A DNA stretch of 64,000 bases. It comes from Naegleria gruberi. Lineage: Eukaryota. The notes below the pieces were generated by a model. The model saw nothing but the letters and a program-made list of their open reading frames with translations, was not told the DNA's origin and searched no databases. Made by a program: the position numbers and the translations under genes. Position 1 is the stretch's first letter; the number at the start of each line of letters is the position of its first letter. The stretch lies in NCBI GenBank assembly GCA_000004985.1, contig GG738887.1; one strand, written 5' to 3'. Shown here one piece after another: positions 3,318-41,021 of this stretch.

Positions 3318-4802
3318 TTGCCAAACTTTCCCACTTTCTCATCACCTATGAAACATGTTTTAATATTCGGAGGAGGCAACAAGTCAAATTTTGAGGAAAA
3401 ACTTGTTGATTTCTTCATATTCAATCATTTTGAAACAACCATTCCGGAGGAGTGGAGAAGTGATTTGATGAATATGAGTACGAGAGAATTAATGGACATG
3501 TCTCAATTCTCCAATATTGAAAATATTAAAAATCAAAAATTGAAGGAATTTGTGGAGGCTTGTAGAGATTTGTTTGTTTCGGAAAAGATTACTTCTCCAA
3601 CGGGTCAACAAGATAATAAAAAGAAGAAGAAATTAAAGAGTTTGGAAAAGGGATTAAATCCTAAAAAGAAATATGAAATTGAAAGGCTGAGTAAATGTAT
3701 TAGAGATTTGTCCAAGACAAGTAATTGTAATAGTATTTGTGATATTGGAGGAGGACAAGGTTATTTGAGTCAGAAAATATTGATTGACCAATCAGTGGAA
3801 AATGATTCTAATATTTCTTATATTTATAATATTGATTGTAATGGTTATTTGACAGAGAATGCAATGAATAGAATTAAGATGGTTAATTCTGTATTGGATA
3901 AATATCATCAGGATGAAAAGATGCATCAATGTTCATATAATGCCATTACCTCACATTTATCCTTCTCATTGAATGATGAGGAATTTTCACAGATTGTAAA
4001 TGAATTGGAAGGACTCGTTGCTACAAATGACGATTTGCGAATGCTCATGATTGGACTTCACACATGTGGACCTTTGGCTAGTTCTATTATCAAGCTCTTC
4101 TTGCAATCGAATATGTGTCATTCATTAGTGAATGTTGGTTGCTGCTATCATAAATTAAAGGAAGGATCAAGCTTTCCACTTTCTTCCCACTACAAGAACA
4201 ATAACAAGATTTACATGTCCAATCTTGGTAAATCTATGGCATGTATTAATCCATTCAATTGGTCTCACTCCAATATGAAGGAGTGTAATGAACAATTCAG
4301 ACTTAAGAGTTACAGATATGCTTTCCAGTACTTGCTCAATTCATTACTTGGGTATGAAAATTCAACGGACCTAATCGTGAGACAAGCATCTAAAACCAAC
4401 AGTACAACATTTGGCACTTTTGCTTATCATACACTCCAGAATTTATTCAAAGATTATCCAACCATTTCTGAAAATCTTCCTTTAGAATTGACTTCAGCAA
4501 GTGTAGATTCATTTACACAAAAGTACAATGAGTATTACCAGTCGGAATTTAATCCTAATGAACATGATGTAGTGAAACAGGTGGAGGCATGTTGGTTTTT
4601 CAGAAGTCTTATTGGACCAGTTATTGAACACTACATTCTTTTGGATCGTTTATTATTCATCCATGAACACAGCAACACTATGATCAAGAAGGTTTATTTA
4701 GAAAGAATTTTCACACCATCAATTTCACCAAGAGGTGTTGTACTAGTTGCCATCAAGAAGGAAATTGATGAAGTTGATGAAATTTCGACTTCTAGCATTT
4801 AA
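3318..4802 (+). CDS. Class I SAM-dependent methyltransferase, METTL25 / Methyltransf_32-like.
   Basis: Motifs CDIGGGQGYLSQ (glycine-rich SAM loop), MIGLHTCGPLAS and NVGCCYHKL. Their spacing matches the METTL25/C12orf26 family fold. The identification rests on motif recall, not on a search. Confidence 0.55.
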   Translation: MPNFPTFSSPMKHVLIFGGGNKSNFEEKLVDFFIFNHFETTIPEEWRSDLMNMSTRELMDMSQFSNIENIKNQKLKEFVEACRDLFVSEKITSPTGQQDNKKKKKLKSLEKGLNPKKKYEIERLSKCIRDLSKTSNCNSICDIGGGQGYLSQKILIDQSVENDSNISYIYNIDCNGYLTENAMNRIKMVNSVLDKYHQDEKMHQCSYNAITSHLSFSLNDEEFSQIVNELEGLVATNDDLRMLMIGLHTCGPLASSIIKLFLQSNMCHSLVNVGCCYHKLKEGSSFPLSSHYKNNNKIYMSNLGKSMACINPFNWSHSNMKECNEQFRLKSYRYAFQYLLNSLLGYENSTDLIVRQASKTNSTTFGTFAYHTLQNLFKDYPTISENLPLELTSASVDSFTQKYNEYYQSEFNPNEHDVVKQVEACWFFRSLIGPVIEHYILLDRLLFIHEHSNTMIKKVYLERIFTPSISPRGVVLVAIKKEIDEVDEISTSSI

Positions 4803-4844
4803 TCGAACTGTCATTGATACTTTTGAATACTATTTAAATTTAAT

Positions 4845-5600
4845 ATGTTGAACTTTTTCACAATCAAAAAAAAAATGAATCAAAAACAACTTGAAGAAAA
4901 GGCCCTCTCACTCATCACTGCACCTGATCACTATGATTTGTTTTTAGAAATTGTCAAGGAAGGACGAATGAAAAGAAAACCAGTTTGGAAGGGATTAAAA
5001 ACTGGCGTTCCACACGATTGTCTCTCTGATAAATGTCTCAGAAAGTGGTCTCCACCACCATATCAGGTTATTGTAAATGATGATTACTATTGTCCATCAT
5101 GTGTATTGCACCATCGGAATAATATGAATAGATTTAAGGAGGGTCATCTGGTATGGTCTTCACATGTACCAAATACTTTTTATTTATTCCAAATTACAGA
5201 TCCACAAACAAATAAGAAACTATTCAAATTTGGAAGAACACAACACCTTGATTCTCTGAAAAGGTATTCTACAGCAGAATTGAAAGGTTATGACATGAAA
5301 TTATTATTGCAATTGAGAGGTAGATTAGAAACCATGACACAAATAGAGAATTGGTGGAAAGAACAAGCAGAGTTAATGGATTTGTTTTCTCGATTTTCTG
5401 ATGAATCTTTTCATGGACTTACTGAATGTTTAGAAATGGATGAAACATCATTGGAGGATTTTATGGCCTATAGTAATGCGATTGAGAAGTCTGATAGGTC
5501 AAAGTTTGAGGAGTGGAATCGTCAATACTGTGAAAGGTTGCAACAATTTATAGATAAAAGAGTTTCGTCAACAATTGGAGAACAATCCAATGTTGAATAA
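4845..5600 (+). CDS. Hypothetical 251-aa protein, possibly a GIY-YIG / T5orf172-like domain protein.
   Basis: Uninterrupted ORF. The segment YLFQITDPQTNKKLFKFGRTQHLDSLKRY resembles the GIY..YIG-like core of T5orf172/MUG113 domains. This is a weak motif-level call. Confidence 0.35.
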   Translation: MLNFFTIKKKMNQKQLEEKALSLITAPDHYDLFLEIVKEGRMKRKPVWKGLKTGVPHDCLSDKCLRKWSPPPYQVIVNDDYYCPSCVLHHRNNMNRFKEGHLVWSSHVPNTFYLFQITDPQTNKKLFKFGRTQHLDSLKRYSTAELKGYDMKLLLQLRGRLETMTQIENWWKEQAELMDLFSRFSDESFHGLTECLEMDETSLEDFMAYSNAIEKSDRSKFEEWNRQYCERLQQFIDKRVSSTIGEQSNVE

Positions 5601-5727
5601 ATGGAATTGATCAATACACTGAATGTTGACGAAACTCTTTCGTACGAATATTAGCATAATCACAGCTGAGAATAAATGTTAATAGTTTCATTAATCCACC
5701 AAAAAGAAGAAAATTCGGTTCTAATTT

Positions 5728-6471
5728 GTGATAGATATAGAAGGTGGTCTCACAGATGGTTACAAAAACGACAAAAAAAACAAATCAACAATGAATTTTC
5801 TCTTTGGAATAGGTTCTGATAACCCAAACTCTTTCAGCTTGTCAAATTTTGGGGCTTCTTTAGGATTAAATGTAAATGATCATCACTCAAGTGCCAGTGT
5901 TAACATGAATCTGCCTAATCTACCTCCTACTCCTTATCATCATCCTCCTAATATGATCATACCAAGTCAACCACAATATTACCATCACCATTATTATCAT
6001 GAAATGCCACCAATGGGTATGAACATGAGTATGCCAGGTTTTGGAATTTCACTTCAAACCAACATGTGTCAAGTGCCACCACCAATGGGAAATGCTCTCG
6101 CTCAACAAATTATTGCAGCTCTTAGAAATTCCTCATTCAAAGGAGAAATGTACAATGCTGTACAAACCTATTCTTCATCTCTTCATTGTCCAGTGAGTGG
6201 ATCAGATTTGTGTACAATTTTGGGTTTCTTTGATTTTGACAATGACAAGTTCAATACTATTATTCAATTGAAACAAACAAATAATATTGCACAAATGAGC
6301 GCCTATGAAGCAAGCAATATTATGAGATTGTTTGATTTTGATAATTCTAGATTGAATGCTTTGCAATTGCTCGTCACTTTTATTTATGACAGAAGAGTGG
6401 CAGCTGAGACAGTTGCTGGTACATTTGATTTTGATCCAACAAGAGCCAGAAACATTCTCCTGACTCAATAA
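5728..6471 (+). CDS. Pro/His/Tyr-rich protein with a C-terminal triple FDFD(N/P)-x5-(A/I)LQL repeat (DUF4476-like?).
   Basis: Three copies of the F-D-F-D-N/P ... L motif at the C-terminus (FFDFDNDKFNTIIQL, LFDFDNSRLNALQLL, TFDFDPTRARNIL). The N-terminal half is low-complexity (PPTPYHHPP, HHHYYH). The likely true start is the internal Met at about nt 5791. Confidence 0.45.
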   Translation: MIDIEGGLTDGYKNDKKNKSTMNFLFGIGSDNPNSFSLSNFGASLGLNVNDHHSSASVNMNLPNLPPTPYHHPPNMIIPSQPQYYHHHYYHEMPPMGMNMSMPGFGISLQTNMCQVPPPMGNALAQQIIAALRNSSFKGEMYNAVQTYSSSLHCPVSGSDLCTILGFFDFDNDKFNTIIQLKQTNNIAQMSAYEASNIMRLFDFDNSRLNALQLLVTFIYDRRVAAETVAGTFDFDPTRARNILLTQ

Positions 6472-6526: not shown

Positions 6527-7309
6527 CTATATTTGCAGGAAATCATTTAAAATTTCCAAACAATGCTTTTTGTCTAGGTTGTAAATTTTGTTGATAATTG
6601 TTTCTTGATTCTCTTGTCGTGCCTTTTCATTTGAAGTGAATGTAAAGGCATTATTCAACTCTAGACTCAAATAATCATAGACGCGAATAACATCCATACT
6701 ACTTTCAAACCACAATCTACACTTGTAGATTATATTAAGCAACAGTAATGGTCTGGATGGATGAGATAATGAGTTTTTTGACACTTTTCTCGCTGCATAT
6801 ATTCTCATATAAAGGCATTCATCAAATAATAGATGTGGTAGTGATTTTTCAGGACAACCAATACCAAATGCAAATGTTGAATGACATCTTGAGCTCTTTG
6901 GTGGATTTTTAATAGTAAAAGAGTATACAAGAAAGTTGTCTGTGTTGTAATTTCTAATGTCCAACAAGTGATGTTTCACTGGGTCAGATATATTAAGGGA
7001 AATGTCTTTGGAAACTTCCTTACACCATGGCTTTAAAGGTGGTTGTTCTTCTTTTATGGGAGTTTTAAAGAGCTGCATAATGGACTCCTTAAAACCTTTT
7101 GATGTTTCCGATAGTTGGCTTCTCTCACCCGAAAGTAATTGATTTGGCTCAACAGTGGAACATAAAATTTCCCATGTATCAGAATTTCCGTAATTGTTTG
7201 CTATTGATATAAGGACTGAGTCGCTCTGGTATAAAATGTCGAGCCCTTTGTTGTGGCCTGCAATTATCGACAAAAAGGAAAAATCAAAGAATGCCATTTT
7301 TTTAAGCAA
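6527..7309 (-). CDS. Hypothetical 260-aa protein.
   Basis: Uninterrupted ORF with no confident domain. AGHNKG is weakly reminiscent of a metallophosphoesterase GNH motif, but the other motifs are absent. Confidence 0.4.
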   Translation of the reverse strand: MLKKMAFFDFSFLSIIAGHNKGLDILYQSDSVLISIANNYGNSDTWEILCSTVEPNQLLSGERSQLSETSKGFKESIMQLFKTPIKEEQPPLKPWCKEVSKDISLNISDPVKHHLLDIRNYNTDNFLVYSFTIKNPPKSSRCHSTFAFGIGCPEKSLPHLLFDECLYMRIYAARKVSKNSLSHPSRPLLLLNIIYKCRLWFESSMDVIRVYDYLSLELNNAFTFTSNEKARQENQETIINKIYNLDKKHCLEILNDFLQI

Positions 7310-8166
7310 TTCTTAATTCATTCATATTGGAAAATTCACCATTAGTGAATTTTATTGATGATCACTAAGATTTTTTTCCTTAATGATCGGAATGACGATA
7401 TTGCTGATAAAATAAATGATAAAGTGAAAGTTCCAGAACTCAAATTAAGTGGAAAATTTCCAATCACCATTACACAAGATGAGAACTTGAAGATTATGAT
7501 GAAGACAACAACAACTAGTGGTGAATGTTTCAACAATACACCTTACTGATAAGGAACCAACAACAATGGAAAAACAATTAGACACAACAATTAACAATTG
7601 AAGTAATTAGAGGCTTAACATTCTCATCCACTGAAAAATCAAATGAAACAATATCCAGTGCCACCAATTCACTTTGGAAAGGAAAAATCCAGGACAACAT
7701 TTGCACGATAAGAATGAGATAGCTCAATTTTTATTGATCTACTTGTTCAGTTAGCAAATCTGATAAAACTGCAACCTTATTCACAACGATATCAACCCCA
7801 AAATATGATAGATACTACTTGTTTATCGATTATGATTCTAATAAATTCTAGGACTGTAGATTGATACAACAACAGAAGAAACAAACAAATTAATCAACAA
7901 ATTAGGAAGATATTTGTAAAGTTTGGAAATCTAATTGGTTACTCCCTCCCACAATTTATCCGAAATGGTTAACTATCATAACCATCACTTAGCGTGATAA
8001 GGAAACAAAAGAAAATGTTCGACAATCATCGAGTCTTTTACCCACTCCAGAGCAGGCTCTTTCGAATCCTCTTCCTTCTCCTTCCACTTTTATTTTACTG
8101 TTCATGTGAAATTATGAAAATCACAAGTGAATTGACTAGATCAAATACTCAACAAATGATGAATAG

Positions 8167-8391
8167 NNNNNNNNNNNNNNNNNNNNNNNNNNNNNNNNNN
8201 NNNNNNNNNNNNNNNNNNNNNNNNNNNNNNNNNNNNNNNNNNNNNNNNNNNNNNNNNNNNNNNNNNNNNNNNNNNNNNNNNNNNNNNNNNNNNNNNNNNN
8301 NNNNNNNNNNNNNNNNNNNNNNNNNNNNNNNNNNNNNNNNNNNNNNNNNNNNNNNNNNNNNNNNNNNNNNNNNNNNNNNNNNNNNNNNNNN
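8167..8391. other. Assembly gap (225 N).
   Basis: N-run in the sequence. Confidence 0.95.
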
Positions 8392-8879
8392 TTTATATCA
8401 TCTCTCAATAATGGTACTGTTAAAACAATTGGAATAACTTTTGTAATAATGGCATCTGACAATAATTTTTGTGATTTCCACATGACAACACTGTATGATT
8501 CATTGATTAATTATGAATTATTCTTTGTAAAACATCAGGCTGTGGCAAATGTGGTTTTGTCCTGTCAAAAGACAAATGGAACTAATTTATTTGAGGAGAG
8601 AGCTGACATTTCACATTTATACTTTCAAAAGTTGGTATTCTATATGATTGTAATGAAGAGTTGCTCACCCATGTCCTTATCATTGATTCAAAGTCAATGG
8701 TCATCTGTAGGATTTTTTATTCAGTCATTTACAGAAAAGTCCAGTTGTTTAAACGAAACTCAACCTTCTATATTTGGAAATGTACTAATTGACAGCTCCC
8801 ACATTTCAAATTCTGTAATATTTTTCAAATACTCTAATCTGATTAGGTTGAATTATGTTTCCATCATGGAGATTGTGCA

Positions 8880-11682
8880 TTGTCTTTTAGTTTCTCTGAA
8901 AAATTACTCGCCACAAATATCCTATTCGATTCCACAGGAATGTTCTTCACTGAGAGAGTGAAACAACTACATTTCTCCAATTACCAAAGTATTGGTAGGA
9001 CCTCAAGAACATACTTGACAGCATTTGGTAGAATTGTGATGAAAAACTCCATTTTCAGAGATTATGTCTATAACTTTCCATCACTCATTATTGAGAATGG
9101 AAATGTTGCTCAATTGAGTGAAATAGTTGCTTTATCCAATACTATTTGGGCTTCTTTTAGATATATTGATAATTTTTCTTTAAAGAATGTCAAAGTGACT
9201 GGAAATCAAATTGTGAATGTCAAAATGACATCTGATAGTCCAATAACAATTACTAATTGCAATCAGATTACAATTGCTGACTCTTTCTTCAACAAGAACG
9301 TTGGATACATTGGAGGGAGTATCCTAATTAATGAATATATCAATATTGACCTGTTTAACAACACCTTTACAAATTGTAAATCTTTTAAAAAAGGAGGAGC
9401 CCTCAATATTGAAAACTATCAACAATCATCACTCATTACTCAAAGTACTATCAATATCATGAGCAATACCTTTGAAAATAATTGGAGCTCAACTGTTGGA
9501 GGTGCCATTTCAATTTTAACAGCCAATCAACTCTATGTGAAAAATAACATTTTCAAAAGAAATGCTGCAAACTCTGCAGGTGGAGCATTTGCCATCACGA
9601 CACATGTCATTAAAGGAGAGTTGGAATCGTACTTTGAAGATAACAGTGTCACTGGCTCATTTCATTCCTTGAATAATTCACAATACTCCTCTGATTCGAA
9701 TCTTTATTTGATGGGAGCTGGTGGAGCTTGTTTGATTCTAAATATGCCGCAGTTTAGTTTTGTCATATCTAGATCTGTATTTGTGGGAAATGAGGCTGAG
9801 AAAGGAGGAGCTGTTGCATGTGGAGCTGACTCGTTGAAAACATCTAAACAGTTAGTTCAAGAATGCAAATTTAGTGAAAATAGAGCTTCCAAAATAGGAA
9901 ATGCTATTTATTTTATTAGACCACAAAGTGTAAACGTAATTGATCAGGAAGTGAGTGGAGATCAAGAGTTATTCTCCTCAACTCCTACAGTTTTTGAAAT
10001 TTTAGAAATGCAACCAAATATAGTATTCCCTGGACAATCAATTTCCTTAACAGTATATTTGGAGAATGTTTTTGGAAATGTTGTGAATGTCACTACTCAA
10101 AATATAATGTTCAGTGCTCAGGATGTTTTTGAAACTTTCCTTAGATATTCACCAAACAGTAATTCCTCATTATTATTTACTCCCTATGCCAAAACAAGTA
10201 ATGTCAAAGATTCTGTTCAGAATTTAACACTTTACTCTGAAGATGGTCGATTGAGTAGAGTTTTATCCTTCACACTAACTGATTGTCCTTCGGGGTTTAT
10301 CATGGAAAAGACAGTTTTCAACTCATTGTTGGTATACGAATGTAAAATTGACACTCGACTGAATGTCAAGTTACTAATTGGTCTCATTGTTCCTCTTGGA
10401 CTCATTGTCTTGGTGATTGGTATCATAATCGGCTTGCTGACCTTCTTAATTATCAGATTTGTCTTTGCACAATTGAAAATGTTAAGAGAAAAACAAAAAG
10501 CAGAAAAAAGTTTGGAAATGCGAATAATTGACAAGAAGGTCATTTTCAATTCTTTTGAAAATACATCACATAATGATTTATCAATTCCATTAATTGATGA
10601 TTCAGCTGAAAAGGAAAAGAAACCATCTTTTATTATTCCAATAGAAAGTATTGAAATTATTCGAAAGCTGGCTGAAGGTGGTTTGGGAATTATTTATCTT
10701 GGTAAATTGTGGAAGAAAATTAACATTGCCATCAAATTATTGAAATCAGACGAGCAAGATGATGAATTTGAACAGGAAGTTTCACTTCTGAGCTCTTTAA
10801 GACATGACAATATTGTGACATTTTATGGAATTTGTGTCACTGATCAAGGAAAGTACATGATAACAGAGTTTGTGGAGAAGGGATCGCTCGATAGGACTCT
10901 ATACAAGGCAAGAATAGGTGAAATTGATTTGTCTCTCCATCAAAAGATTTCCATTCTCATAGCTACAGCCAAGGGAATCGAATATCTTCATTCATTAACC
11001 CCAGTAGTTGTGCATCGTGATTTGGTAAGTTTCTTAATTACAGTGGAATAATTAGTAATTGTCAACAGAAACCTGGAAATATCCTACTAGACGATAAGAA
11101 TATTGCCAAGATTTGTGATTTTGGCTTGTCAAGAGTTGTGTCAACCACAACAATGCAAAGTGTCATGACTACCAATTTGGGAACTTTATTCTATTGTCCA
11201 AGGTATGTTGTTTTTTGTTAACATTTGTTGACATTTTTGAAAGTGAGGTGATTGAGGGACCAACTGAAACAAATTTGGCCTCTAAACAAACAGCTACAAA
11301 GATAGATGTCTATAGTTTTGCAATTATCATGTGGGAAGTTTTTTTCGAGCTGGTTCCTTACTCTACAAATGTCGAAAAATTGATTCCACAATTTGAAATT
11401 TCCAAGCAAGAGGAAGAAGCTCTCAAAATTAATGGTTTCAACATTCCATATTATGTAGTGAAGGGTGTGAGACCATTTATTCCTTTCAAAACTGATGAGC
11501 AAATACGAAAGTGGCTGGAACTCTACATGCCAAACGAATTGAAAAATTCAGAAATTATTCTAATTGTTAAGACTTATTTCACAATAATGAAACAAGCATG
11601 GTCTCACAATGCCACAAAAAGACCTACCATCGATTCAGTTCGATCAGAATTGGAACAATTGGAAGAATTGTTAAGAATCTAA
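8880..11682 (+). CDS. Receptor-like Ser/Thr protein kinase. The ectodomain has right-handed beta-helix (PMP/pectin-lyase-like) repeats, followed by a single TM and a cytoplasmic kinase. There are three exons, with introns at 11025..11068 and 11203..11243.
   Basis: The ectodomain carries repeated GGAL/GGAI/GGAF/GGAV/GGAC motifs typical of parallel beta-helix (polymorphic-membrane-protein-like) repeats. The TM is LLIGLIVPLGLIVLVIGIIIGLLTFLII. Kinase motifs are AEGGLGIIYLG, AIKLLK and HRDL|KPGNILLD, where the intron splits HRDL from KPGN (donor gtaagt, acceptor caacag). Then DFGLSR, and a second intron (gtatgt..gaaag) before EVIEGP...DVYSFAIIMWE. The 5' end is uncertain because upstream ORFs and the gap may contribute exons. 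Confidence 0.7.
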
Positions 11683-12087: not shown

Positions 12088-14340
12088 TTATAATTTCATT
12101 TCAAAAGGAGAGGTTGTTGGATAGGCTACTCCAATATTATTAGGAGTGGTTCTCGAGTTGTATAATAAAATATTCATTTCTTCCCTGCTTGAGAGAAGAA
12201 GTGACTTGATTTCTTCCAGCTCTTGCCTGATAAAGCCAGATTGTCTTTGGTGTTCCTCATTTATGTGTGCAGAGGCTGTTGCAGCAGAACCTTTGTATTT
12301 GGAGGAGAACGTCTCTTTGAATCGCTGGTATTTTTGATTGGATTGATAATTTTTTTCATCAAGATATCTAGTATCAGGAATGTAAGGTTTAAAGTTGATT
12401 TTTTCCTTGATGCTTGGCCTTTCAGTTTCGGTTGACTTTGCGATGAACAATGGTTTGGAAGATGCCTCTGTTTGTGTTTTTGATGAATAACTGGTAGTAG
12501 AGTTGGAGGAAGTTGGGGGTGTTCTTGAAATATTGGATGGTGGTGGAATGTTTGATCTTGGAAATGATGAAAAGGAAGAAAGAGGTCGTTGAGGAAAAGC
12601 TTGAGCATATGGATTTCTAAAGTACGCAAGAGGTGGTGGATAATAAGGAACAAAGTTGGGAGAGTAAAAGTTACAATTACAATGATCACAACACAAGTTG
12701 CTGTGAGCTTGTGGAGGAATATTTCCATTATTGGTGCCCTGATAATTGGTGTTGAAAACTTGGGAATGGTAAGCTGTTTGAGTTGCATATGTTCTCGAAT
12801 CTTTTGTGAGATCATCAGTCCCAATAGATATACTCTGGACATCCTTTGGCAGAGGAGGTTTTTCTCTCTCAATAGTAATTATTCTATTCGATTCCCTATT
12901 ATCTTTGGAAGGAAGATCCAATTCAGTTTCGTGAACAATTTCTATTTTTCTTTCTGTTCTAATTGGAATCTCGATAACTCTTTCCATATTTCGTTCAACT
13001 ATTGGTTCCGATATCATCTGCTCTGCTTTCTTAATGATAGGTTTTGGCTCTTTTTCAGGAATTATTGTCTCTTTCGAGATCTCTTTTTGTTTAGGCAATG
13101 GCTCTTCCTCAACTTGTTTTGAGCTTGTTGTTGGAGATGGTGTTCTTGAAGCAGGTATAACAGTCTCTGCGTTTTGTGGCTTTTGCAAAGATACGACTTT
13201 AACTGGTTCCTTTTCCACTTGCTTTTGAACTGCAACTTGTTCTGATTTCTTCGGTTCTGGCTTTTTAATTGGTTTTTCTGGTTCAGGTTTCTTAATAGGC
13301 TCTGCGGCTGGTTTTGGTTTTGAGGTAGTTGGAATGGTTATTGGTTTTTGTGGTTCCTTCTTTGGAGGAGGCTTCACCTCCTCTTCTTCATCATCAAAGT
13401 CATCGAAACTGTCATTGCTGTTATCTAAAAAGTTATCTTCAAACGATTCATTATCATCAAAATCACTGAATTCATCCTCGTCCTTCTTGTGTGTATGGGA
13501 GGGTTTGTGGTGATGATCCTCATCGTCCTCAATCTCCTCTTCAAAATCATCAAATGAACTTTCCTGTGTAGAGTTGTGACCATTATCGTTTTCTTCAATT
13601 ATTTCCTCATCTCCAAAATCTGAAAAGTCATCCTCACTAAAATTTTCTTCCTCACTCATTACAAAATCCTCTTGAACAACTCGAGCAGGTTCTCTGTAGA
13701 GTGGTTTTGGTTTTACTGGCTCTGGTTTTTTAATTGGTTGTTGAGCTACAGCTGGTGACTTAGCATGTGTGCCAACGGGATTTGGAGAGGGTGTCTTCTT
13801 GGGCTGTTCTTTGACTGGTGGTTGCTTTTTCACCACAACTACAGAAGGGGAAGGATCTTCTCCTCCCTCCTCATCTGAAAAATCAGAAAACTCATCAAGT
13901 GTCTTTACATTAAACGAATCATTCTCACTGGATGAAGCATACTCGGTCTCTATAACTTGTTTCTTATTTACATTTGTTGGCTTAGTGTTTTTTTGATGAT
14001 TATTATTTGAAATTGTCGGTTTGTTAGTAACAACTGGTTTCGGAAGTTCGTCCTCATCCTCATCATAATTTAATTTTACAGATTTTTGTGATCGTTGAGA
14101 GCTAGAAAGAGTTGGTGAAGGATTGGTTGGAGTAGGTGTTCGTGAAGCAATTCCAAACATTGAATTTACTTTCTGAAACATGTTTCCGAAGTTTGATGTT
14201 GAAGAGCCGTGAGAGGCATGCGATCCATTCGAAGACGAAGAATGTGATCGTCTCATCATTGCATACGGATCATTTCCAATAATCGAACCAGATGAGTAGG
14301 CATCAAATGAGGCTGCAACTGGTTGAGGCTTTTTTTTCAT
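12088..14340 (-). CDS. Acidic, Pro/Lys/Glu-rich low-complexity protein (750 aa).
   Basis: Long ORF with KPEPxKP and PIKKPEP repeats, D/E/S-rich acidic blocks (DDFDDEEEE) and a Cys-rich C-terminus (CCDHCNCN). Antisense ORFs in the same region are composition artefacts. Confidence 0.45.
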   Translation of the reverse strand: MKKKPQPVAASFDAYSSGSIIGNDPYAMMRRSHSSSSNGSHASHGSSTSNFGNMFQKVNSMFGIASRTPTPTNPSPTLSSSQRSQKSVKLNYDEDEDELPKPVVTNKPTISNNNHQKNTKPTNVNKKQVIETEYASSSENDSFNVKTLDEFSDFSDEEGGEDPSPSVVVVKKQPPVKEQPKKTPSPNPVGTHAKSPAVAQQPIKKPEPVKPKPLYREPARVVQEDFVMSEEENFSEDDFSDFGDEEIIEENDNGHNSTQESSFDDFEEEIEDDEDHHHKPSHTHKKDEDEFSDFDDNESFEDNFLDNSNDSFDDFDDEEEEVKPPPKKEPQKPITIPTTSKPKPAAEPIKKPEPEKPIKKPEPKKSEQVAVQKQVEKEPVKVVSLQKPQNAETVIPASRTPSPTTSSKQVEEEPLPKQKEISKETIIPEKEPKPIIKKAEQMISEPIVERNMERVIEIPIRTERKIEIVHETELDLPSKDNRESNRIITIEREKPPLPKDVQSISIGTDDLTKDSRTYATQTAYHSQVFNTNYQGTNNGNIPPQAHSNLCCDHCNCNFYSPNFVPYYPPPLAYFRNPYAQAFPQRPLSSFSSFPRSNIPPPSNISRTPPTSSNSTTSYSSKTQTEASSKPLFIAKSTETERPSIKEKINFKPYIPDTRYLDEKNYQSNQKYQRFKETFSSKYKGSAATASAHINEEHQRQSGFIRQELEEIKSLLLSSREEMNILLYNSRTTPNNIGVAYPTTSPFEMKL

Positions 14341-32322: not shown

Positions 32323-35300
32323 ATGAAAGTGGTACTACTTGCTATTTTGTTGTGTATTGTTATGTCTGCCAAGTTCATTGACACACAAAGTCTTCTTCTC
32401 TACAATATCACAACAATAGCAGGAGGTGGTTCTGTTGTGGGCGATGGTTTACTTGCTACTAATGCTCAATTAGCAATCCCTGCAGGCGTTGCAATTAGCT
32501 CTATTGGTGAAATAATAATTGCTGACTCCAATAATAATAGAATTCGTAAAATAAGTACAAATGGCTACATTTCAACGATAGCAGGAACAGGAAGTGCATC
32601 ATTTGGTGGTGATGGTGGACTGGCCATTAATGCACAATTAAATAGTCCTTCTGCTGTTTCTATTAGCTCAAATGGTGATATGTATATTTCGGATACGGGC
32701 AATCAAAGAATTAGAAAAATCAGTACCAATGGATATATCTCAACAATTGCAGGAAGTGGAACTGGAGGATACAGTGGAGATGGCGGATTGGCCACAAGTG
32801 CTCAATTATATTATCCCAAGGGAGTAGCTATCAGTCCAAGCAATGAAATTTATATAGCTGATACCTATAACCATAGAATTCGTAAAGTAAACACAAATGG
32901 ATATATCTCAACTGTAGCAGGAAGTGGAACTGGAGGCTACGGTGGAGATGGTGGATTGGCCACAAGTGCTCAGGTAAACTATCCATTTAGCGTGTCAATT
33001 AGTTCTACTGGTGAAATTTATATTGCTGATTATTACAATCAAAGAATTCGAAAAGTTACAACATATGGTTTTATCTCGACTGTGGCAGGAAGTGGAACTG
33101 CTGGATACAGTGGAGATGGTGGATTGGCCACAAGTGCTCAATTATATTATCCGCTTGGTGTGTCAATTAGTTCTGCTGGTGAAATTTATATTGCTGATTA
33201 TTACAATCATAGAATTCGAAAAGTTACGACATCTGGGTACATTTCTACAATTGCAGGAACTACCTATGGTTTCAGTGGAGATGGTGGATTGGCCACAAGT
33301 GCTCAGTTGTACTATCCCAATGGCGTTTCAACAGGCTCCAATGGTGAAATATTTATAGCTGACACATACAATTATAGAATTCGTAAAATTAATACCTCTG
33401 GTTACATTTCTACAATTGCAGGAACATCAAGCTTTGGAAACAACATACCTGCTACCGGCGCCAACATAGCACCAACTGGCTCCCCTACTCTTAACAATGG
33501 TAAAATTGTATTTGCAGACACCTCTGGCCAAGTGAGGCAAGTTGACCTTACTACTAATATTATTTCTACCCTAGGTGGAACTGTTGGATCTACAACAATA
33601 GTACAGGCATTCTATAATCCAACATGCGCAAAGTATTACAAGACAGATTTATATATTCTCTACTCTAACTACTATTTAGACAAGGTCACCTCAGTTGCCA
33701 GTAAGGTTGCAGGTACTGGTACTTTAAATGGATACGGTGGAGATGGTAACCTTGCAACAAGTGCAAGATTGAATTATCCTTATGGTACTGCATTTAGCTC
33801 AAATGGAGATATGTATATTGCAGATACAAACAATAATCGAATTCGTAAAGTTACAACATCTGGATATATCTCAACTGTAGCAGGAAGTGGAACTGGGGGA
33901 TACAGTGGAGATGGTGGATTGGCCACAAGTGCACAATTAAATTATCCAAGATCAGTTGCAATTAGCTCAAGTGGAGAGATTTATATTGCTGATTTCAATA
34001 ACCACAGAATTCGTAAAATTAACATCTCTGGATATATCTCAACAATAGCAGGTACTGGAAGTGTAGGATACAGTGGAGATGGTGGATTGGCCACAAATGC
34101 ACAATTATATTATCCCCAAACAGTTGCAGTCAGCTCAAGTGGTGAAATTTATATTGCTGATGCCTATAACCATAGAATTCGTAAAATTAACACCTCTGGA
34201 TATATCTCAACAATAGCAGGTACTGGAAGTGTAGGATACAGTGGAGATGGCGGATTGGCCACAAGTGCTCAATTATATTATCCATTTAGTGTGGCAATTA
34301 GTTCAGTGGGTGAAATTTATATCGCTGATACCTATAACCATAGAATTCGTAAAATTAATACCTCTGGTTACATTTCCACAATTTCAGGAACTGGAAGTGG
34401 AGGATATAGTGGAGATGGCGGATTGGCCACAAGTGCACAATTAAATTATCCATTTAGTGTGGCAGTTAGTTCAGTTGGTGAAATTTATATAGTTGACACC
34501 AATAACTATAGAATTCGTAAAATTAATACCTCTGGTTACATTTCCACAATTGCAGGAACTGGAACTGGAGGATATAATGGAGATAGTATTTTGGCCACAA
34601 GTGCACAATTAAATTATCCTTATGGACTCACAATAAGTTCAACTAGTGAAATTATTGTTGCTGATTATTACAATCACAGAATTCGTAAAATTAACACCTC
34701 TGGTTACATTTCAACAATTGCTGGCGGTTTTGGTGATGGAGATATGGCCACCACAAGTTTCATTTCAGCTTATTCATTCGAGTTCACTTTAAATGGAGAA
34801 ATTATTATAGCTGATTCAAATAATCACAGAATTCGTAAAATTACAACATTAGGATATATTTCCACAATTTCAGGAACTGGAACTGCTGGATATAATGGAG
34901 ATGAAATTTTGGCAACAAACTCTCAATTGAATAATCCTAACGGAATTGCACTAAGTTCCAATAGTGAAATTTATATAGCTGATACCAATAACCATAGAAT
35001 TCGTAAAGTCAATGCATCTGGTTACATTTCAACAATTGCAGGAACTGGAACTGGAGGATATAATGGAGATGGTGTTTTGGCCACAAGTGCACAATTAAAT
35101 TATCCTAATGGAATTGCAATTCAAGAAAATGGTGAAATACTAATTGCTGACAATAATAATCATAGAATTCGTAAAATACGCACAAATGGCTATATTTCCA
35201 CAATTGCTGGAAGTGGAATTGGTGGATTTACTGATAATACTGTAGCAACAAGTGCTCAATTAGAAAATCCCTTGGGGGTTGCAATCGGTTCAAACAAAGA

Positions 35301-38300
35301 GATTTTTCTTACTGATTCGACCAATAAGAGAATTAGAAAACTTATCCCTTGGTGCTCAGAAAATGGCATTCTAATTAATGGAACTTGTGAATATCAATGT
35401 TTTGGAGAAACTAATAAGAACTCAACTGTTTGCTCTGGAAGAGGAAACTGTATTGGGAATGATCAGTGTAATTGCACCACTCCTCAATACTTCGGTTCAA
35501 AATGCAACCAATTTTATTGTTATGGACTATTGAACGCAATGTCAAATGTTTGTTCGTCCCAAGGTAGCTGTAATTCTCCTAATAATTGTACATGCTTTAA
35601 AGGGCATTATGGAGAAACTTGTCAATATTTTTACTGTAACTCTATTCCATTCAATTCCAGTGCTGCTTGTTTAGGTAGAGGTTCTTGTATCTCATATAAT
35701 AATTGCACATGTCAACAAGATTATGCAGGCAATGATTGTCAATATTTTTATTGTGGTAATCGTCTGAATAATGATGGTACAGTGTGCTCTGCACATGGAA
35801 ACTGTATATCTCCTCATAATTGCTCTTGCGACAGTGGTTTTTATGGAAGCAATTGTGAACAATTCGATTGTTATGGCATTAATAATTTGAATGCATCAGT
35901 TTGTTCCAGAAATGGTTATTGCTCCTCTCCAAATAATTGCAAATGTGATCTTGGTTATTATGGAAATAGCTGTGAAATGTATAACTGTTATGATATTCCA
36001 AAAACTGACCCAAGTGTTTGTTCAGGTCAAGGCCTTTGTTCTTCATATAATAACTGCACTTGTCAACAAAATTATTCAGGAGTTAATTGCGAAAATTTCC
36101 ATTGTTATGGAATATCAAAAATAGAGTCTACAGTGTGCTCATCACATGGAACATGCTTAGCGTTGAATAATTGTTCTTGCATTGATGAATATTTTGGAAA
36201 TAATTGTGACCAATTTAAGTGTTATGGTGTTAACTTTATGAACAATTCAGTTTGTTCAGGAAGAGGCCAATGTATTTCGCCAAACTATTGTAAATGTGAT
36301 CTTGGTTATTATGGAAATAATTGTGAAATGTATGATTGTTATGGGTTGTCAAAAAATAATACCAATGTATGCTCAGGTCACGGTACGTGTATTTCATTGA
36401 ATAACTGTACTTGCAGAGATGGATATTATGATTCCAAATGTGGTTCATTTAACTGTGCTGGAGAAAAATTTATAGGCCAAAACCTTTGCCAAAATAATGG
36501 CTCTTGCACTGGTCCTGGTAACTGTGAATGCCCTATTCAGTATGGAGGTGCTAGATGTGAATATTTCAAATGTTATTCATTTACATCCAATGATCCTCAA
36601 GTATGTGGAGGTCATGGAACTTGTTATAATTATAACCATTGTACTTGCTCTCAAAATTGGTTTGGAAAAGATTGTTCAGTCACCACTTGTTTTAGTACAC
36701 CTTCTAACTCTAGCTCTGTATGTGGTGGAAGAGGTAATTGTACTGATTATAACCAATGCAGTTGCAACATTGGATATAGAGGTAATGAATGTGAACATAC
36801 TGTTTGTTATGATAAGATTGAAAGTGATAGTTCTGTATGCTCTGGAAAAGGTTTATGTCTATCACCAAATAATTGCACCTGTGAAACAGGTTTTGTTGGA
36901 AGTGAGTGTCAATACCATGAAGTATATTTAAATACGTCATCCGCCATTATTTTTTCTTTCCATAACAGTCTAATGAAGTTATTACCAAATGAGAGTGAAC
37001 AATTTTCGTGTTCTGACATTTTTGAAGAATCAGAAATCGACAAATTTGGAGAAAGTTCCTCTTTCATCTGCCAATGGAGAAGAAAATCATTACAAATTCA
37101 TCTTGGTTTTGATTATGCTATTGGTCATAACTCTATCATTCAAACTAAGTTTAACTTTTCATTGAGAGTTTATACTTTATCCAATGAAGCTTCATCTCCA
37201 ACTTGTTCTTTTGGATATTCATTAACTGAAACTTCTCCCTTATTAGATATAGTGATACGTTTGAATTGTGATGACAATTTTCATGGCTTCAAGAAATTGA
37301 GAACTGATTGGTCGTGTGATCAATGCACAAACAGCGTTTCATCATTATTGAACAACTATTCAAATAGATCATCCATTTATATCCCTATTTCATATATGAA
37401 TAGTTTGACTCCTATTCAAGGTTATAAGATTATTAACTTACAAACTTCTTTTTCATCAGAGATTTATTCTACAAAATCCATCAACAAGGAAGTTAAGGTT
37501 CAATCCTATGCAAAATCATTACCTCCAAGTTATTACTGGCTAAGTGATAATTATGCTGGAAAGACATATTCATGTATTGCTCATAATTGCATTTTAGAAA
37601 CTTCTTTAAATAGTTTAAACTCTTCTATTTCTTATTCATTCTCTGGATTTTTCAGTTTATTGAATAATGACCTAAACTCTAAACAAATGGTGAGGATGAT
37701 TAATGATTATTCTGGTGGAGTTTTAGATAGCGAATTTAATTCAAATATGCAAGTATTTGGTGTTCAGCTAAAAACATATGTTTACTTACCATTAAGCATT
37801 GACTCTTTTAAATATTCAACATTTACGAACTTGGATTTTGTTATGGCAGGTGTCAATAGAACATATTCGATCAACTCAGATAGTCTGGTGACAGTTACAT
37901 TGGTAACTGATGATCCATACATCTCAAAATATACTCTAAGCGATTATTTGGAATACACTTGGAAATGCTACATGGTTTCTTCTTCAAATAGATCTCTTCT
38001 TTTGACAGATAATTTATGTTCTTCAATTGAAAACACTAGATCTTATCTTATGTTAGACATTACGAAAATGTCTTTAAAAGAAGGTTCATATGTAATATCT
38101 GCTTCGATTTCCTCTACAAAATACTTTGTCACAACCGTTTACAACTATGCAGGTTTTATTGAATTGTTGGATATTTCCAACGAATCCCCTAAAATAACCA
38201 CAGACTACTTGCCTGCAATCACACCTTCTCATAATAATATTTATTTAAGAAGTGTGGTAAACTCTTCCTCAGAGGTTTCGTTTGCTTGGAACCTCAAACA

Positions 38301-41021
38301 TGGTTATTTGAATGTTGATGAAAACATAGAAGATTTTCTCCAAAGAAACACAATTTACACAAACATCATTGACAATAACGTTGAAATCATTTTGAACGTT
38401 GATAACAAGTACATCATTCCAGGAGAATCGTATGAATTCGAATTATCAACTAAAAATTCAAAAGGTTATGCTAATGTCTCCATTTCAACAAGAGTTGACT
38501 TCTCCCCACGATTGTCATGCGATGTCGAGAATTTGAAGAATGATGCTAATATTACCAGTTTTGAATCATTGATATCCATTACTTGTGTAAAATTACCATA
38601 CGAAAGTATTTCGAGTTTTGTGATGGAATTTTATTCACAAAATGAAAGATTGGGAGTAATATCTAATACTCCAAAGAAATCCTTAGTTACTAGAGTTCCT
38701 TATTATGCACAAGATGGAATAATTACTTTGGTTGTAAAACTTCAAAACTTGTATGGATCTATTGGAGTATTTAGAAAGAATATCAAGATTGGATTACCTA
38801 ATTATTTGTCAAATGACAATACGATTATTTCCCGAGTTACTTACTCCCTAAACCAATTCCAAAATATTAAGAATTCTCAACCAGTCAAGATGGAAGTTTC
38901 AAATGAAATCAATACTTTACTTTCTCTATTAATTCAAAATGAAACTCTCTCGAAATTCTCTGAGAATGTTGTAAAGCAATTGAATTCAGCTCAATTAACT
39001 TCATTCAATACCATGCTAAGAGAAATGATCATATTAACGAAGAGTTTACAAGATATTACATACAGGGTTGATGAAAGAGTCATTCAATTGACTTTGCCCG
39101 TTGTCAGCAAGATTTGTAATATTTTAAAAATAACTCTGGACACTTCATCATTATCTTCATTCGCTCTTGATGTAGAAAAATGGTTGGATTGGATTTATTC
39201 TGGAATGGACAAAGCGCTTAATTATTATCAAACCAATATTTACAAAGACTTACTTGATAACTATCATTTGCAAGAAATAGAGTCATTACAAAACATTCTT
39301 TCAACTATTTATCAAAGTAATTTCGAGCAGCAATACAAGTTCTATAAGTATAATTTACAATACATCAAGCTGACTGGAAGCAATACTGATAATTCAAGCC
39401 TGGTGGAAAATATTGAATATTCTAATTTATTGAATGCCAAGGCTATCTCTCTCTCAATTTCCAACTTTAAGGTGGACATGAAATTACCTAATGATTTTAC
39501 GAACCAAATTTCTTTGCAATCTAAATCTAAACTATTCTATTCTATCAGATCATTTAGTAACACTGGAGCTACAAATCTTTTACAAGAAAAACCAGTGGTT
39601 GATCTATCTCTGTATGACGCCTCTTACAATATTATTAACGTCAAAAATATCAATCCACCAATTGTCTTCAAATTCCAAGGATTAATTACCAATAATAAGA
39701 CTGGCATCAATACTACTTGTATATATTATGACACAACTCTTTCAAAATGGTCTACTATTGGGTTGGAAACATACACCACAATAACTAAAAGAACAGACGA
39801 TTTTATTTACTTCGATATGGAATGTCGTTCCAGTCACTTATCAGTCTTTTCAGTTCAAGAAGTTGATTATAACTCTCCTATCACACCTATTACCGCTATA
39901 TCATCTAATAGATCTAGTAGAGATGAATCATCAACCATTTTAACAATTATATTATCAACAGTTTTACCGATTAGCCTTTTAATACTTGTTTTTATCATTA
40001 TTTTGGTTGTTTTCATGATCCTTTTATTTAGAAATAAGCAAAAGAAAGCAAATGAACTAGCAAATACAACCAATATTGAACTATCAATATCAGACTTCCC
40101 ATCTGAAGGAAGTATGTTTATTCAACCACTTACAAGCATTTCTTCCAATGGAACTGCTTCTGAATCCTTCAATCCTCTCTCTAGATATTCTAATCTGGTA
40201 AGAATTGGACAAGGATCTTTTGGATCTGTGTTTAAAGCATTTGATAACAAGTCCGATTCAGTCAAGGCAATTAAGGTTATTCGATATAATTCAATGGAAG
40301 AATTGAACAATTTTATGAAAGAAGGAACTCAATTAATGAATGTTAAACATCCTTACATTTTGAGAGTTAATGAATTCTTTGTGAGTAAGGATCAATTACT
40401 TTGTATAGATATGGACTTTTATGAACTAGGAGATTTGGTCCGATTGACCAATGTTGATTTTGACTGCTCTGAAAAATTAATTAAGCAAATAATTTTCCAA
40501 ATGTGTCAAGCTCTTGATTACATTCATAGCAATATGAAAATAATTCACAGAGACATCAAACCATCAAATATATTTGTAAAAAGTTTGGAAAATGATAACA
40601 TTCATATCATTGTTGCAGATTTTGGGTTAGCTAAAGCAAATACTACATCTACAAACAATTCTTATGCAGGTACTCCTATTTTTATGGTAAGTTTCTTTAA
40701 TTCTTCATTAATTATTAACAAGTTTAGTCTCCTGAACTTGGCTTAGGTGGAAAATATTATTATAACACGGATATTTATAGTTTAGGTGTTACAATTTATC
40801 AAATAATGACAAAAGACACATTTACATCAATAAGTCAACTTTACTTGGGCAAAGATCAAAATGAAGTATCCAAAATATTAAACAAAAAGTTATAAGAGGA
40901 TCAATACTCCCAAAGACTTACTGATTTAGTGTTATCAATGCTAACAAGAGATAATTCATCTAGACCTCAAGCTCAAGATATTTTGCAAGATTCTTATTTT
41001 GATGATTTAAGAATGAAACGA
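32323..41021 (+). CDS. Giant receptor Ser/Thr kinase of roughly 2,900 aa. Order: signal peptide, about 16 NHL-type beta-propeller blades, 13 EGF-like modules, about 1000 aa of unassigned ectodomain, a single TM, and a C-terminal protein kinase. There is an intron at 40687..40727. The 3' end has an in-frame TAA at 40893, which may be bridged by a 27-nt intron at 40889..40915.
   Basis: Signal peptide MKVVLLAILLCIVMSA. A 56-aa unit …GYISTIAGTG…GYSGDGGLATSAQLNYP…GEIYIADxxNHRIRKINTS… repeats about 16 times. 13 modules follow the pattern C-x-G-x-G-x-C-x4-5-C-x-C-x2-G-Y-x-G-x2-C-E-x-F-x-C-Y-G. The TM is ILTIILSTVLPISLLILVFIIILVVFMILLF. Kinase motifs are IGQGSFGSV, AIKVI, HRDIKPSNIFV, ADFGLAK, then GTPIFM|SPELG across a 41-nt gtaagt…tttag intron, and a C-terminal …DLVLSMLTRDNSSRPQAQDIL. 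Confidence 0.8.
32420..35340 (+). repeat. Tandem coding repeats of period 168 nt (56 aa, NHL-like blades) inside the giant receptor gene. Several copies are more than 90% identical at nucleotide level.
   Basis: Visible in the sequence: for example 33990..34150 and 34160..34320 are nearly identical (catagaattcgtaaaattaacacctctggatatatctcaacaatagcaggtactggaagtgtaggatacagtggagatgg…). Alternate-frame ORFs in the track (33011..33358, 34241..34444) are by-products of this repetition. Confidence 0.8.
35350..36920 (+). repeat. Array of 13 EGF-like (tenascin/integrin-beta-type) modules of about 32–40 aa within the giant receptor.
   Basis: CSGRGNCIGNDQCNC, CSSQGSCNSPNNCTC, CLGRGSCISYNNCTC and similar. 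Each is followed by GYYGxxCExYxCYG linkers. Confidence 0.75.

What the first reader, a model, noticed from the sequence alone, without database searches (positions are those of the whole stretch)
7994..11682. Second receptor kinase with a beta-helix ectodomain; possible missing 5' exons across the gap
The 8880..11682 gene encodes a PMP/pectin-lyase-like parallel beta-helix ectodomain + TM + kinase, but the 723-aa ORF lacks a signal peptide. Upstream, ORF 7994..8166 begins with a signal-peptide-like stretch (RILFLLLPLLFYCSCE) and runs into the 225-N gap. ORF 8449..8961 overlaps the start of the kinase ORF in another frame. The true gene probably starts near 7994, with one or more introns or a frameshift hidden by the gap. 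A beta-helix ectodomain on a eukaryotic receptor kinase is unusual.
Basis: partly seen in the sequence, partly recalled or inferred. Interest (0 to 1): 0.65.

Follow-up and report, generated by a model that had tools for sequence, protein, structure and literature searches.

The report
Gap-truncated Naegleria beta-helix receptor kinase
This is one Naegleria gruberi gene for a membrane receptor kinase whose outer part is a bacterial-adhesin-like beta-helix; an assembly gap hides part of its 5' end, so the public gene model starts too late and lacks the signal peptide.

Summary

The public model (1038 aa) starts at ATG 8449. That Met is internal:
- The frame is open back to the gap edge at 8392.
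- There is no AG acceptor and no in-frame ATG between 8392 and 8448.
- 'IGITFVIMASDNNFC' aligns with residues about 140-185 of two Naegleria lovaniensis relatives. Both relatives carry N-terminal signal peptides, and both encode signal peptide and ectodomain in one exon.

ATG 8015..8166 encodes a signal-peptide-like N-terminus that runs open into the 225-N gap. Counting 50 aa, about 75 aa of gap and 27 aa puts the conserved Cys at about residue 152, against 155 in one relative. This start is likely but unproven.

The frame change at 8847-8961 is a 44-nt intron (8847..8890), not something hidden by the gap. Two more introns split the kinase domain.

Among the 150 best ectodomain relatives, only Naegleria proteins carry a kinase. 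It is an unusual domain combination in an uncharacterised, already deposited gene. Interest is modest.

The parts
8015..8166 (+). Candidate first coding segment: MFDNHRVFYPLQSRLFRILFLLLPLLFYCSCEIMKITSELTRSNTQQMMN. It has a signal-peptide-like n-region, an h-region at aa 18-28 and a CSC|E c-region. It is open up to the gap.
   Evidence: This is the only frame open into the gap. It has the best codon-usage score of the six frames, but the score is near zero. It is one of 6 of 118 ORFs that pass a crude signal-peptide test. Its length fits relatives: 50 + about 75 + 27 = about 152, against 155 in P0005. Its link to the gene is inferred.
8167..8391 (.). Assembly gap of 225 N. It is predicted to hide about 75 codons, including the N-terminal cap motif CGxSPxxACPSL that the N. 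lovaniensis relatives conserve.
   Evidence: Gap coordinates are. The motif is present in P0004 and P0005 about 50 residues upstream of the aligned 'NFC', and is absent from readable sequence.
8392..8846 (+). Coding segment that emerges from the gap: the N-terminal part of the ectodomain. It contains the internal Met at 8449 that the public model uses as its start.
   Evidence: The frame is open from the gap edge. There is no AG and no in-frame ATG in 8392..8448. Coding potential is +18.7 bits, against -36 or lower in the other frames. 'IGITFVIMASDNNFC' aligns with P0004 and P0005.
8847..8890 (+). Intron of 44 nt (GTTGAA...TTTTAG) that joins frame 1 to frame 0. The alternative in the public model is 8815..8846 (GTAATA...ATTAG, 32 nt).
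   Evidence: The length is 2 mod 3, as the frame change requires. My junction gives NSVIFFKYSNLISFSEKLL, which aligns with three relatives without an indel. The public model adds a 4-residue insert, ELCFHHGDCAL. The splice-site consensus slightly favours the public model. This is unresolved without RNA.
8891..11024 (+). Main exon. It holds the beta-helix (confident model about 8958..9980; Pmp-type FxxN/GGA repeats 9288..9920), a beta-rich stalk with the YPGQ and CPSGF motifs (9981..10355), the TM helix (10371..10454), the juxtamembrane region and the kinase N-lobe up to HRDL.
   Evidence: The profile of the family hits Beta_helix/Chlam_PMP proteins down to E 7e-72.
11025..11068 (+). Intron of 44 nt (GTAAGT...ACAG) inside the HRDL|KPGN catalytic loop.
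   Evidence: Splicing restores HRDLKPGN and matches P0001 exactly.
11069..11202 (+). Kinase exon holding the DFG motif and the activation loop.
11203..11243 (+). Intron of 41 nt (GTATGT...AAAG).
11244..11682 (+). Last exon: the kinase C-lobe, with the TAA stop at 11680..11682.

Best explanation
Positions 8015..11682 (+) are one Naegleria gruberi gene for a type I, single-pass receptor-like Ser/Thr kinase of the TKL kind.

Layout from N- to C-terminus:
- a signal peptide (inferred; ATG 8015);
- an N-terminal cap hidden in the 225-N gap (inferred);
- a right-handed parallel beta-helix built partly of Pmp-type FxxN/GGA coils (shown);
- a beta-rich stalk (shown at moderate model confidence);
- one TM helix (shown);
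- a kinase domain whose catalytic Lys, HRD and DFG motifs are intact (shown).

The deposited 1038-aa model is 5'-truncated. The gene caller could not cross the gap and fell back on the internal Met at 8449. The frame shift near 8850-8960 is a 44-nt intron, and two more short introns split the kinase.

Likely mechanism, inferred from the families involved: the beta-helix ectodomain is of a fold that serves as an adhesin or polysaccharide-binding surface in chlamydial and trichomonad Pmps and in the pectin-lyase-like superfamily. It would bind an extracellular or cell-surface ligand such as prey, substrate or glycan. Ligand-driven clustering would then activate the cytoplasmic kinase by trans-phosphorylation.
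For: Identity. The region is 98-99% identical to 'predicted protein [Naegleria gruberi]'.

Kinase. Pfam gives E 1e-44. The closest solved structures are CTR1, TNNI3K and TAK1. The motifs IAIK, HRDLKPGN and DFG are present.

Ectodomain.
- Six FxxN/GGA pairs are present.
- The family profile hits Beta_helix/Chlam_PMP proteins at E down to 7e-72.

Truncation.
- The exhaustive search found N. lovaniensis relatives P0004 (1273 aa) and P0005 (806 aa). Both have signal peptides and 130-160 extra N-terminal residues.
- The alignment extends upstream of Met 8449 to the gap edge.
- There is no AG and no in-frame ATG between the gap and 8448.

Start at 8015.
- It is the only frame open into the gap.
- Its signal-peptide-like N-terminus is a feature of only about 5% of ORFs in the window.
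- The length arithmetic matches P0005.
- The relatives have no 5' intron.
- A divergent upstream gene ends near 7297-7309, which leaves a promoter-sized spacer.
Against: - No sequence or transcript spans the gap. Two metagenome DNA scans for the gap flanks found nothing, and no second copy of the protein exists in the 5.8-billion-protein set.
- The codon-usage score of 8015..8165 is only +0.6 bits.
- The hydrophobic core is encoded by a pyrimidine-rich tract, which could also be promoter or UTR sequence.
- With exactly 225 N the two frames do not match. The true gap length must be 1 mod 3.
- The protein's own Chlam_PMP Pfam score is below the cut-off.
- Ligand, localisation and kinase activity are untested.
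- The fold evidence rests on a predicted model.
Confidence: 0.75

Rival explanations
1. The gene is 5'-truncated by the gap, but its start codon and signal peptide lie inside the gap. On this reading 8015..8166 is non-coding promoter or 5' UTR whose pyrimidine tract merely translates into hydrophobic residues.
For: Coding potential of 8015..8165 is about zero. Gap sizes are estimates, so the gap could be longer than 225 nt. The frames on the two sides differ at the stated length.
Against: About 75 codons cannot hold the roughly 126-156 residues that relatives have upstream of the aligned 'ITF.IM' segment, unless the gap is much larger than stated. The open frame, ATG and signal-peptide-like core together are rare in this window.
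Confidence: 0.2
2. The public model is right. Translation starts at ATG 8449, the protein has no signal peptide, and the upstream ORF is unrelated.
For: It is the deposited annotation. The N. gruberi paralogue P0014 is also annotated without a signal peptide.
Against: Homology with relatives continues upstream of Met 8449 to the gap edge, and the Met aligns with internal residues ('EMW', 'YIM'). A protein with a 640-aa N-glycosylation-site-rich region before a single TM helix, and a kinase after it, needs a signal peptide for that topology. Both full-length N. lovaniensis relatives have one.
Confidence: 0.03
3. The locus is a decaying pseudogene or carries a sequencing frameshift. On this reading the frame change at 8847-8961 is an indel rather than an intron.
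For: The donor GTTGAA is non-consensus. The two competing intron calls (8815..8846 and 8847..8890) show how uncertain this is. A related N. lovaniensis gene is split by a homopolymer frameshift.
Against: Either intron restores a long uninterrupted ORF of about 1050 codons with all kinase motifs intact. The spliced junction aligns with three relatives without an indel. The intron length of 44 nt equals that of the confirmed kinase intron.
Confidence: 0.05

Closest known systems
Naegleria relatives: N. lovaniensis C9374_000528 (XP_044552356, P0004), C9374_013524 + C9374_013523 (P0005 + P0175), and N. gruberi NAEGRDRAFT_74710 (P0014)
   Same: They share the whole architecture: beta-helix with Pmp repeats, a stalk with YPGQ and CPxGF, a TM helix, an 'AEKS..IIDK.VIF' juxtamembrane segment and a TKL-like kinase. 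Identity over the full length is 28-38%, and 40-47% in the TM-to-kinase part for the relatives measured (P0174-P0178).
   Different: The ectodomains have diverged strongly. There is no synteny with the window. The N. lovaniensis genes show the complete N-terminus (signal peptide + cap) that is missing here. All are uncharacterised 'hypothetical' or 'predicted' proteins.
Trichomonad Pmp-like surface proteins (TvPmp; PMC6701047)
   Same: They are eukaryotic type I membrane proteins with a Pmp-repeat ectodomain and a single C-terminal TM helix in place of the bacterial autotransporter barrel. They are implicated in adhesion.
   Different: TvPmps have short cytoplasmic tails with endocytic motifs and no kinase. 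No direct homology test against them was run here.
Chlamydial polymorphic membrane proteins (Pmp autotransporters; PMC11166332, PMC10715098)
   Same: FxxN and GGA(I,L,V) tetrapeptides recur once per beta-helix coil.
   Different: There is no autotransporter beta-barrel. The host is eukaryotic, with a TM helix and kinase. Only about 6 repeats are present, and the Pfam score is below the cut-off.
Protist and plant single-pass receptor-like Ser/Thr kinases (Entamoeba TMKs, plant RLK/Pelle, CTR1-like TKLs) - comparison from my own knowledge
   Same: The topology is signal peptide - ectodomain - one TM - TKL-type kinase. Activation by ligand-induced oligomerisation is presumed.
   Different: Their ectodomains are CXXC-rich (Entamoeba) or LRR, LysM, lectin or malectin (plants). 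None is a Pmp-type beta-helix. No kinase phylogeny was done here.
Beta-helix/Pmp ectodomain fused to other membrane outputs (P0003: Beta_helix + 7tm_3 GPCR; multi-TM proteins P0010, P0015, P0021, P0026, P0028)
   Same: The extracellular cassette is the same: beta-helix, stalk, CPxGF.
   Different: The output module is a 7TM or multi-TM domain instead of a kinase. These are environmental eukaryotes of unknown identity.

Membership tests
Eukaryotic protein kinase superfamily (Pfam PF07714 / PF00069) | Significant match above the curated cut-off | tested here: met
   153.2 and 148 bits against cut-offs of 23.1 and 31.7.
Eukaryotic protein kinase superfamily (Pfam PF07714 / PF00069) | Catalytic residues: VAIK Lys, alphaC Glu, HRD...N, DFG | tested here: met
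   IAIK (nt 10734..10736), FEQEVSLL, HRDLKPGN and DFG are all present after splicing. HRDLKPGN is the Ser/Thr-type loop. The APE motif is the variant 'PSE'.
TKL (tyrosine-kinase-like) group | Closest relatives are TKL kinases, or placement by phylogeny | tested here: inconclusive
   The best solved matches are CTR1 (1e-31), TNNI3K and TAK1, but BTK and CSK score nearly as well. No phylogeny was run.
Chlam_PMP repeat (PF02415) | Pfam score above the gathering cut-off (20.6 bits) | tested here: not met
   This protein scores 14.4 bits, E 0.048. Relatives P0004, P0005 and P0014 pass with 36.8, 43.9 and 48.1 bits.
Chlam_PMP repeat (PF02415) | Recurring FxxN and GGA(I,L,V) tetrapeptides in register | tested here: met
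   There are six GG[AS]x and six FxxN motifs, which alternate within aa 285-495. N and GGA columns are nearly invariant in alignments A1 and A3.
Chlamydial Pmp autotransporters | C-terminal autotransporter beta-barrel and bacterial Sec signal | tested here: not met
   The C-terminal part is a TM helix plus kinase. It is not a member; it only shares the repeat type.
Right-handed parallel beta-helix (pectin-lyase-like) fold | Three-dimensional superposition on solved beta-helix proteins | tested here: met
Pectin-lyase-like enzymes (lyase / glycosidase activity) | Catalytic residues of a specific GH or PL family | not tested
   Sequence identity to the structural matches is only 8-15%. No active-site comparison was made.
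Type I single-pass membrane receptor | One TM helix between the ectodomain and the cytoplasmic domain | tested here: met
   There is one hydrophobic segment, aa 646-673 (Kyte-Doolittle up to 3.17). The flanking sequence RFVFAQLKMLREKQK is basic on the kinase side.
Type I single-pass membrane receptor | Cleavable N-terminal signal peptide | tested here: inconclusive
   A candidate lies at 8015..8110, but it is separated from the gene by the gap. SignalP was not available. The relatives do have one.

The most novel reading that the evidence does not exclude
The Pmp-type beta-helix + stalk + TM + TKL kinase proteins are a receptor-kinase family restricted to Naegleria (Heterolobosea) and not yet described in the literature. 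They would have arisen when a widespread protist surface-adhesin cassette was fused to a kinase. The same cassette is elsewhere fused to 7TM receptors. These proteins could be the amoeba's sensors for prey, substrate or glycans.
Probability: 0.5. Interest if true: 0.45.

Novelty: new variant of a known kind. Interest (0 to 1): 0.33.

Why it matters
Practically, it corrects a public gene model. The deposited protein lacks its signal peptide and N-terminal cap because of a 225-N gap, and its first intron is probably misplaced. The N. gruberi paralogue and one N. lovaniensis relative also appear to be mis-modelled.

Biologically, it documents a small family of receptor-like kinases in Naegleria whose ligand-binding part is an adhesin-type beta-helix. 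I could not find that ectodomain class described for receptor kinases. It adds to the evidence that receptor kinases were assembled independently in many protist lineages from whatever surface modules were available. It also gives candidate sensors for work on how Naegleria, including the pathogenic N. fowleri lineage, recognises surfaces or prey.

It does not open a long-standing question.

Tried and rejected
- Single-sequence AlphaFold2 of exon 2 gave pLDDT 34 and was unusable.
- The bacterial promoter/terminator scan is irrelevant for a eukaryote and was ignored.
- The exact-protein contig look-up failed for P0001 and P0014; N. gruberi is not on record. I therefore obtained no neighbouring annotation and no paralogue locus.
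- The profile search with the Naegleria alignment was swamped by repeat-rich Pmp proteins and missed the family itself. It was useful only as evidence of fold family.
- The synteny test between the window and the two N. lovaniensis loci found none, so positional orthology is not established.
- The AFDB fold library was unavailable.
- The sequence search of the ectodomain against PDB gave no hit.
- Literature searches for Naegleria with beta-helix, Pmp or receptor kinase found nothing relevant. The N. gruberi genome paper is not held.
- I considered a frameshift instead of an intron at 8847-8961 and rejected it. I also rejected the annotated start at 8449.
Full report
**What the window is.** The window has 33.8% G+C and three N-gaps. 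One of them is 8167..8391, exactly 225 N. A protein search with the translated region returned 'predicted protein [Naegleria gruberi]' (P0001, 1038 aa) at 98-99% identity. The window is therefore a scaffold of the N. gruberi draft genome, and the gene is already deposited as an uncharacterised model.

**Check of the observation.**
- ORF 8880..11051 is 723 aa.
- ORF 8449..8961 overlaps it in another frame.
- ORF 11194..11682 holds the kinase C-lobe.
- An ORF is open from 7994 into the gap and contains RILFLLLPLLFYCSCE.

Pfam finds a protein kinase domain at E 1e-44. A hydropathy scan finds one TM helix at aa 646-673 of my model, nt 10371..10454.

The ectodomain contains six FxxN and six GG[AS]x motifs that alternate within aa 285-495, nt 9288..9920. 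This is the signature of chlamydial Pmp repeats, which correspond to coils of a beta-helix (PMC11166332, PMC10715098). The protein's own Pfam Chlam_PMP score is below the cut-off (14.4 against 20.6 bits). Its relatives pass it (36.8-48.1 bits). A profile of the family hits proteins annotated Beta_helix/Chlam_PMP down to E 7e-72.

**Gene structure.** Splicing 11025..11068 (GTAAGT..ACAG, 44 nt) restores HRDL|KPGN. Splicing 11203..11243 (GTATGT..AAAG, 41 nt) joins the activation loop to the C-lobe. Both junctions agree with P0001.

The frame change between ORF 8449..8961 and ORF 8880.. needs an intron whose length is 2 mod 3. Two adjacent candidates exist:
- The public model removes 8815..8846 (32 nt, GTAATA..TTAG) and so creates the peptide ELCFHHGDCAL.
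- I favour 8847..8890 (44 nt, GTTGAA..TTAG). It gives NSVIFFKYSNLISFSEKLL, which aligns with three relatives without an indel.

The splice-site consensus slightly favours the public choice, so only RNA can settle this. Either way, the frame change lies in readable sequence and is not hidden by the gap.

**The 5' end.** The reading frame of the ectodomain is open from the first base after the gap (8392). It has positive coding potential, +18.7 bits, against -36 or lower in the other frames. Between 8392 and 8448 there is no AG dinucleotide, so no splice acceptor, and no in-frame ATG.

The exhaustive search of 1.84 billion representatives found three full-length-type relatives:
- N. lovaniensis C9374_000528 (P0004, 1273 aa);
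- N. lovaniensis C9374_013524 (P0005, 806 aa);
- the N. gruberi paralogue NAEGRDRAFT_74710 (P0014, 1046 aa).

In the alignment, 'IGITFVIMASDNNFCDF' matches 'VTTQFEMWSNDGNFCLAEF' of P0004 and 'ISVQFYIMNDEFNFCFADF' of P0005. The annotated start Met is therefore an internal residue. The relatives carry 130-160 more N-terminal residues. Each begins with a classic signal peptide and includes a conserved cap motif, CGxSPxxACPSL. That motif is absent from the readable sequence here, so it should lie in the gap. Both N. lovaniensis genes encode signal peptide and ectodomain in one exon: the first 930 aa of P0004 and all of P0005. No hidden intron is needed.

**The candidate start.** ATG 8015 opens the only frame that runs into the gap. 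It encodes MFDNHRVFYPLQSRLFRILFLLLPLLFYCSCE..., with a basic n-region, an 11-residue uncharged hydrophobic core and small residues before a plausible cleavage site.
- Only 6 of 118 ATG ORFs of at least 50 aa in the window pass the same crude test. Among those six is the true signal peptide of the other receptor kinase at 32323.
- The arithmetic fits. 50 aa, about 75 aa of gap and 27 aa place the conserved Cys at about 152, against 155 in P0005.
- Upstream, a divergent minus-strand ORF ends at 7309. This leaves a spacer of about 700 bp.

Against this, the codon-usage score of 8015..8165 is only +0.6 bits. The hydrophobic core is encoded by a pyrimidine tract. The two frames match only if the true gap length is 1 mod 3. 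Nothing I could reach spans the gap. I rate the truncation itself at about 0.9 and the 8015 start at about 0.65.

**Kinase type and likely mechanism.** The nearest solved kinases are CTR1, TNNI3K and TAK1, which are TKL kinases. Cytoplasmic tyrosine kinases come close behind. The HRDLKPGN loop is of the Ser/Thr type. The Lys, Glu, HRD and DFG residues are intact, so an active enzyme is expected.

The topology is that of a type I receptor kinase. By analogy with adhesin-type beta-helices, the ectodomain probably binds a surface or glycan ligand and signals by clustering. The analogues are the chlamydial and trichomonad Pmps (the latter raise adhesion, PMC6701047) and the polysaccharide-binding pectin-lyase-like fold. 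This step is inference only.

**How unusual it is.** Of the best 150 ectodomain relatives, only the Naegleria proteins contain a kinase. Others couple the same cassette (beta-helix, stalk with YPGQ, CPxGF) to a class C 7TM domain (P0003) or to multi-TM regions. A kinase-side search found further Naegleria and environmental relatives:
- C9374_013523, which lies directly next to C9374_013524;
- a 605-aa metagenomic fragment at 47% identity.

Literature searches found no description of such receptor kinases. It is thus a rare domain combination within a familiar kind, the protist receptor-like TKL kinases. It is present in databases but uncharacterised.

**Verdict.** The finding is a useful annotation correction and a modestly interesting lineage-specific receptor family, not a new kind of system.

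Noticed in passing
window 32323..40746 (+): A 2807-aa ORF with a clear signal peptide (MKVVLLAILLCIVMSA), at least 13 NHL repeats, teneurin-type EGF repeats and a C-terminal protein kinase domain that runs past the ORF end. It is presumably the 'first' receptor kinase of this window, and a giant teneurin-like receptor kinase.
   Followed up: partly
L001 7489..11375 (N. lovaniensis PYSW02000006.1): C9374_013524 (ectodomain, ends 'CEK*') and C9374_013523 (TM + kinase) are adjacent. They look like one receptor-kinase gene split by a frameshift at an A5 run (TGTGAAAAATGAC). The TM helix is readable immediately afterwards in another frame.
   Followed up: partly
P0014 = N. gruberi NAEGRDRAFT_74710 (not in the window): The paralogue is also annotated without a signal peptide. 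It begins at the cap motif ('MNDLLADCSSPPT'), so its model is probably 5'-truncated too.
   Followed up: no
P0003, P0010, P0015, P0021, P0026, P0028 (environmental proteins): The same beta-helix/Pmp ectodomain cassette is fused to a class C GPCR 7TM domain (P0003: Beta_helix + 7tm_3) or to multi-TM regions. This suggests a modular surface domain that is reused with different outputs.
   Followed up: partly
window 12088..14340 (-): A 750-aa low-complexity Ser/Pro/Glu/Lys-rich ORF with no Pfam match lies immediately downstream, convergent with the kinase gene.
   Followed up: no
window 3318..6471 (+): Upstream neighbours are a Methyltransf_32 protein (3318..4802) and a DUF4476 protein (5728..6471). 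They are unrelated to the finding.
   Followed up: no
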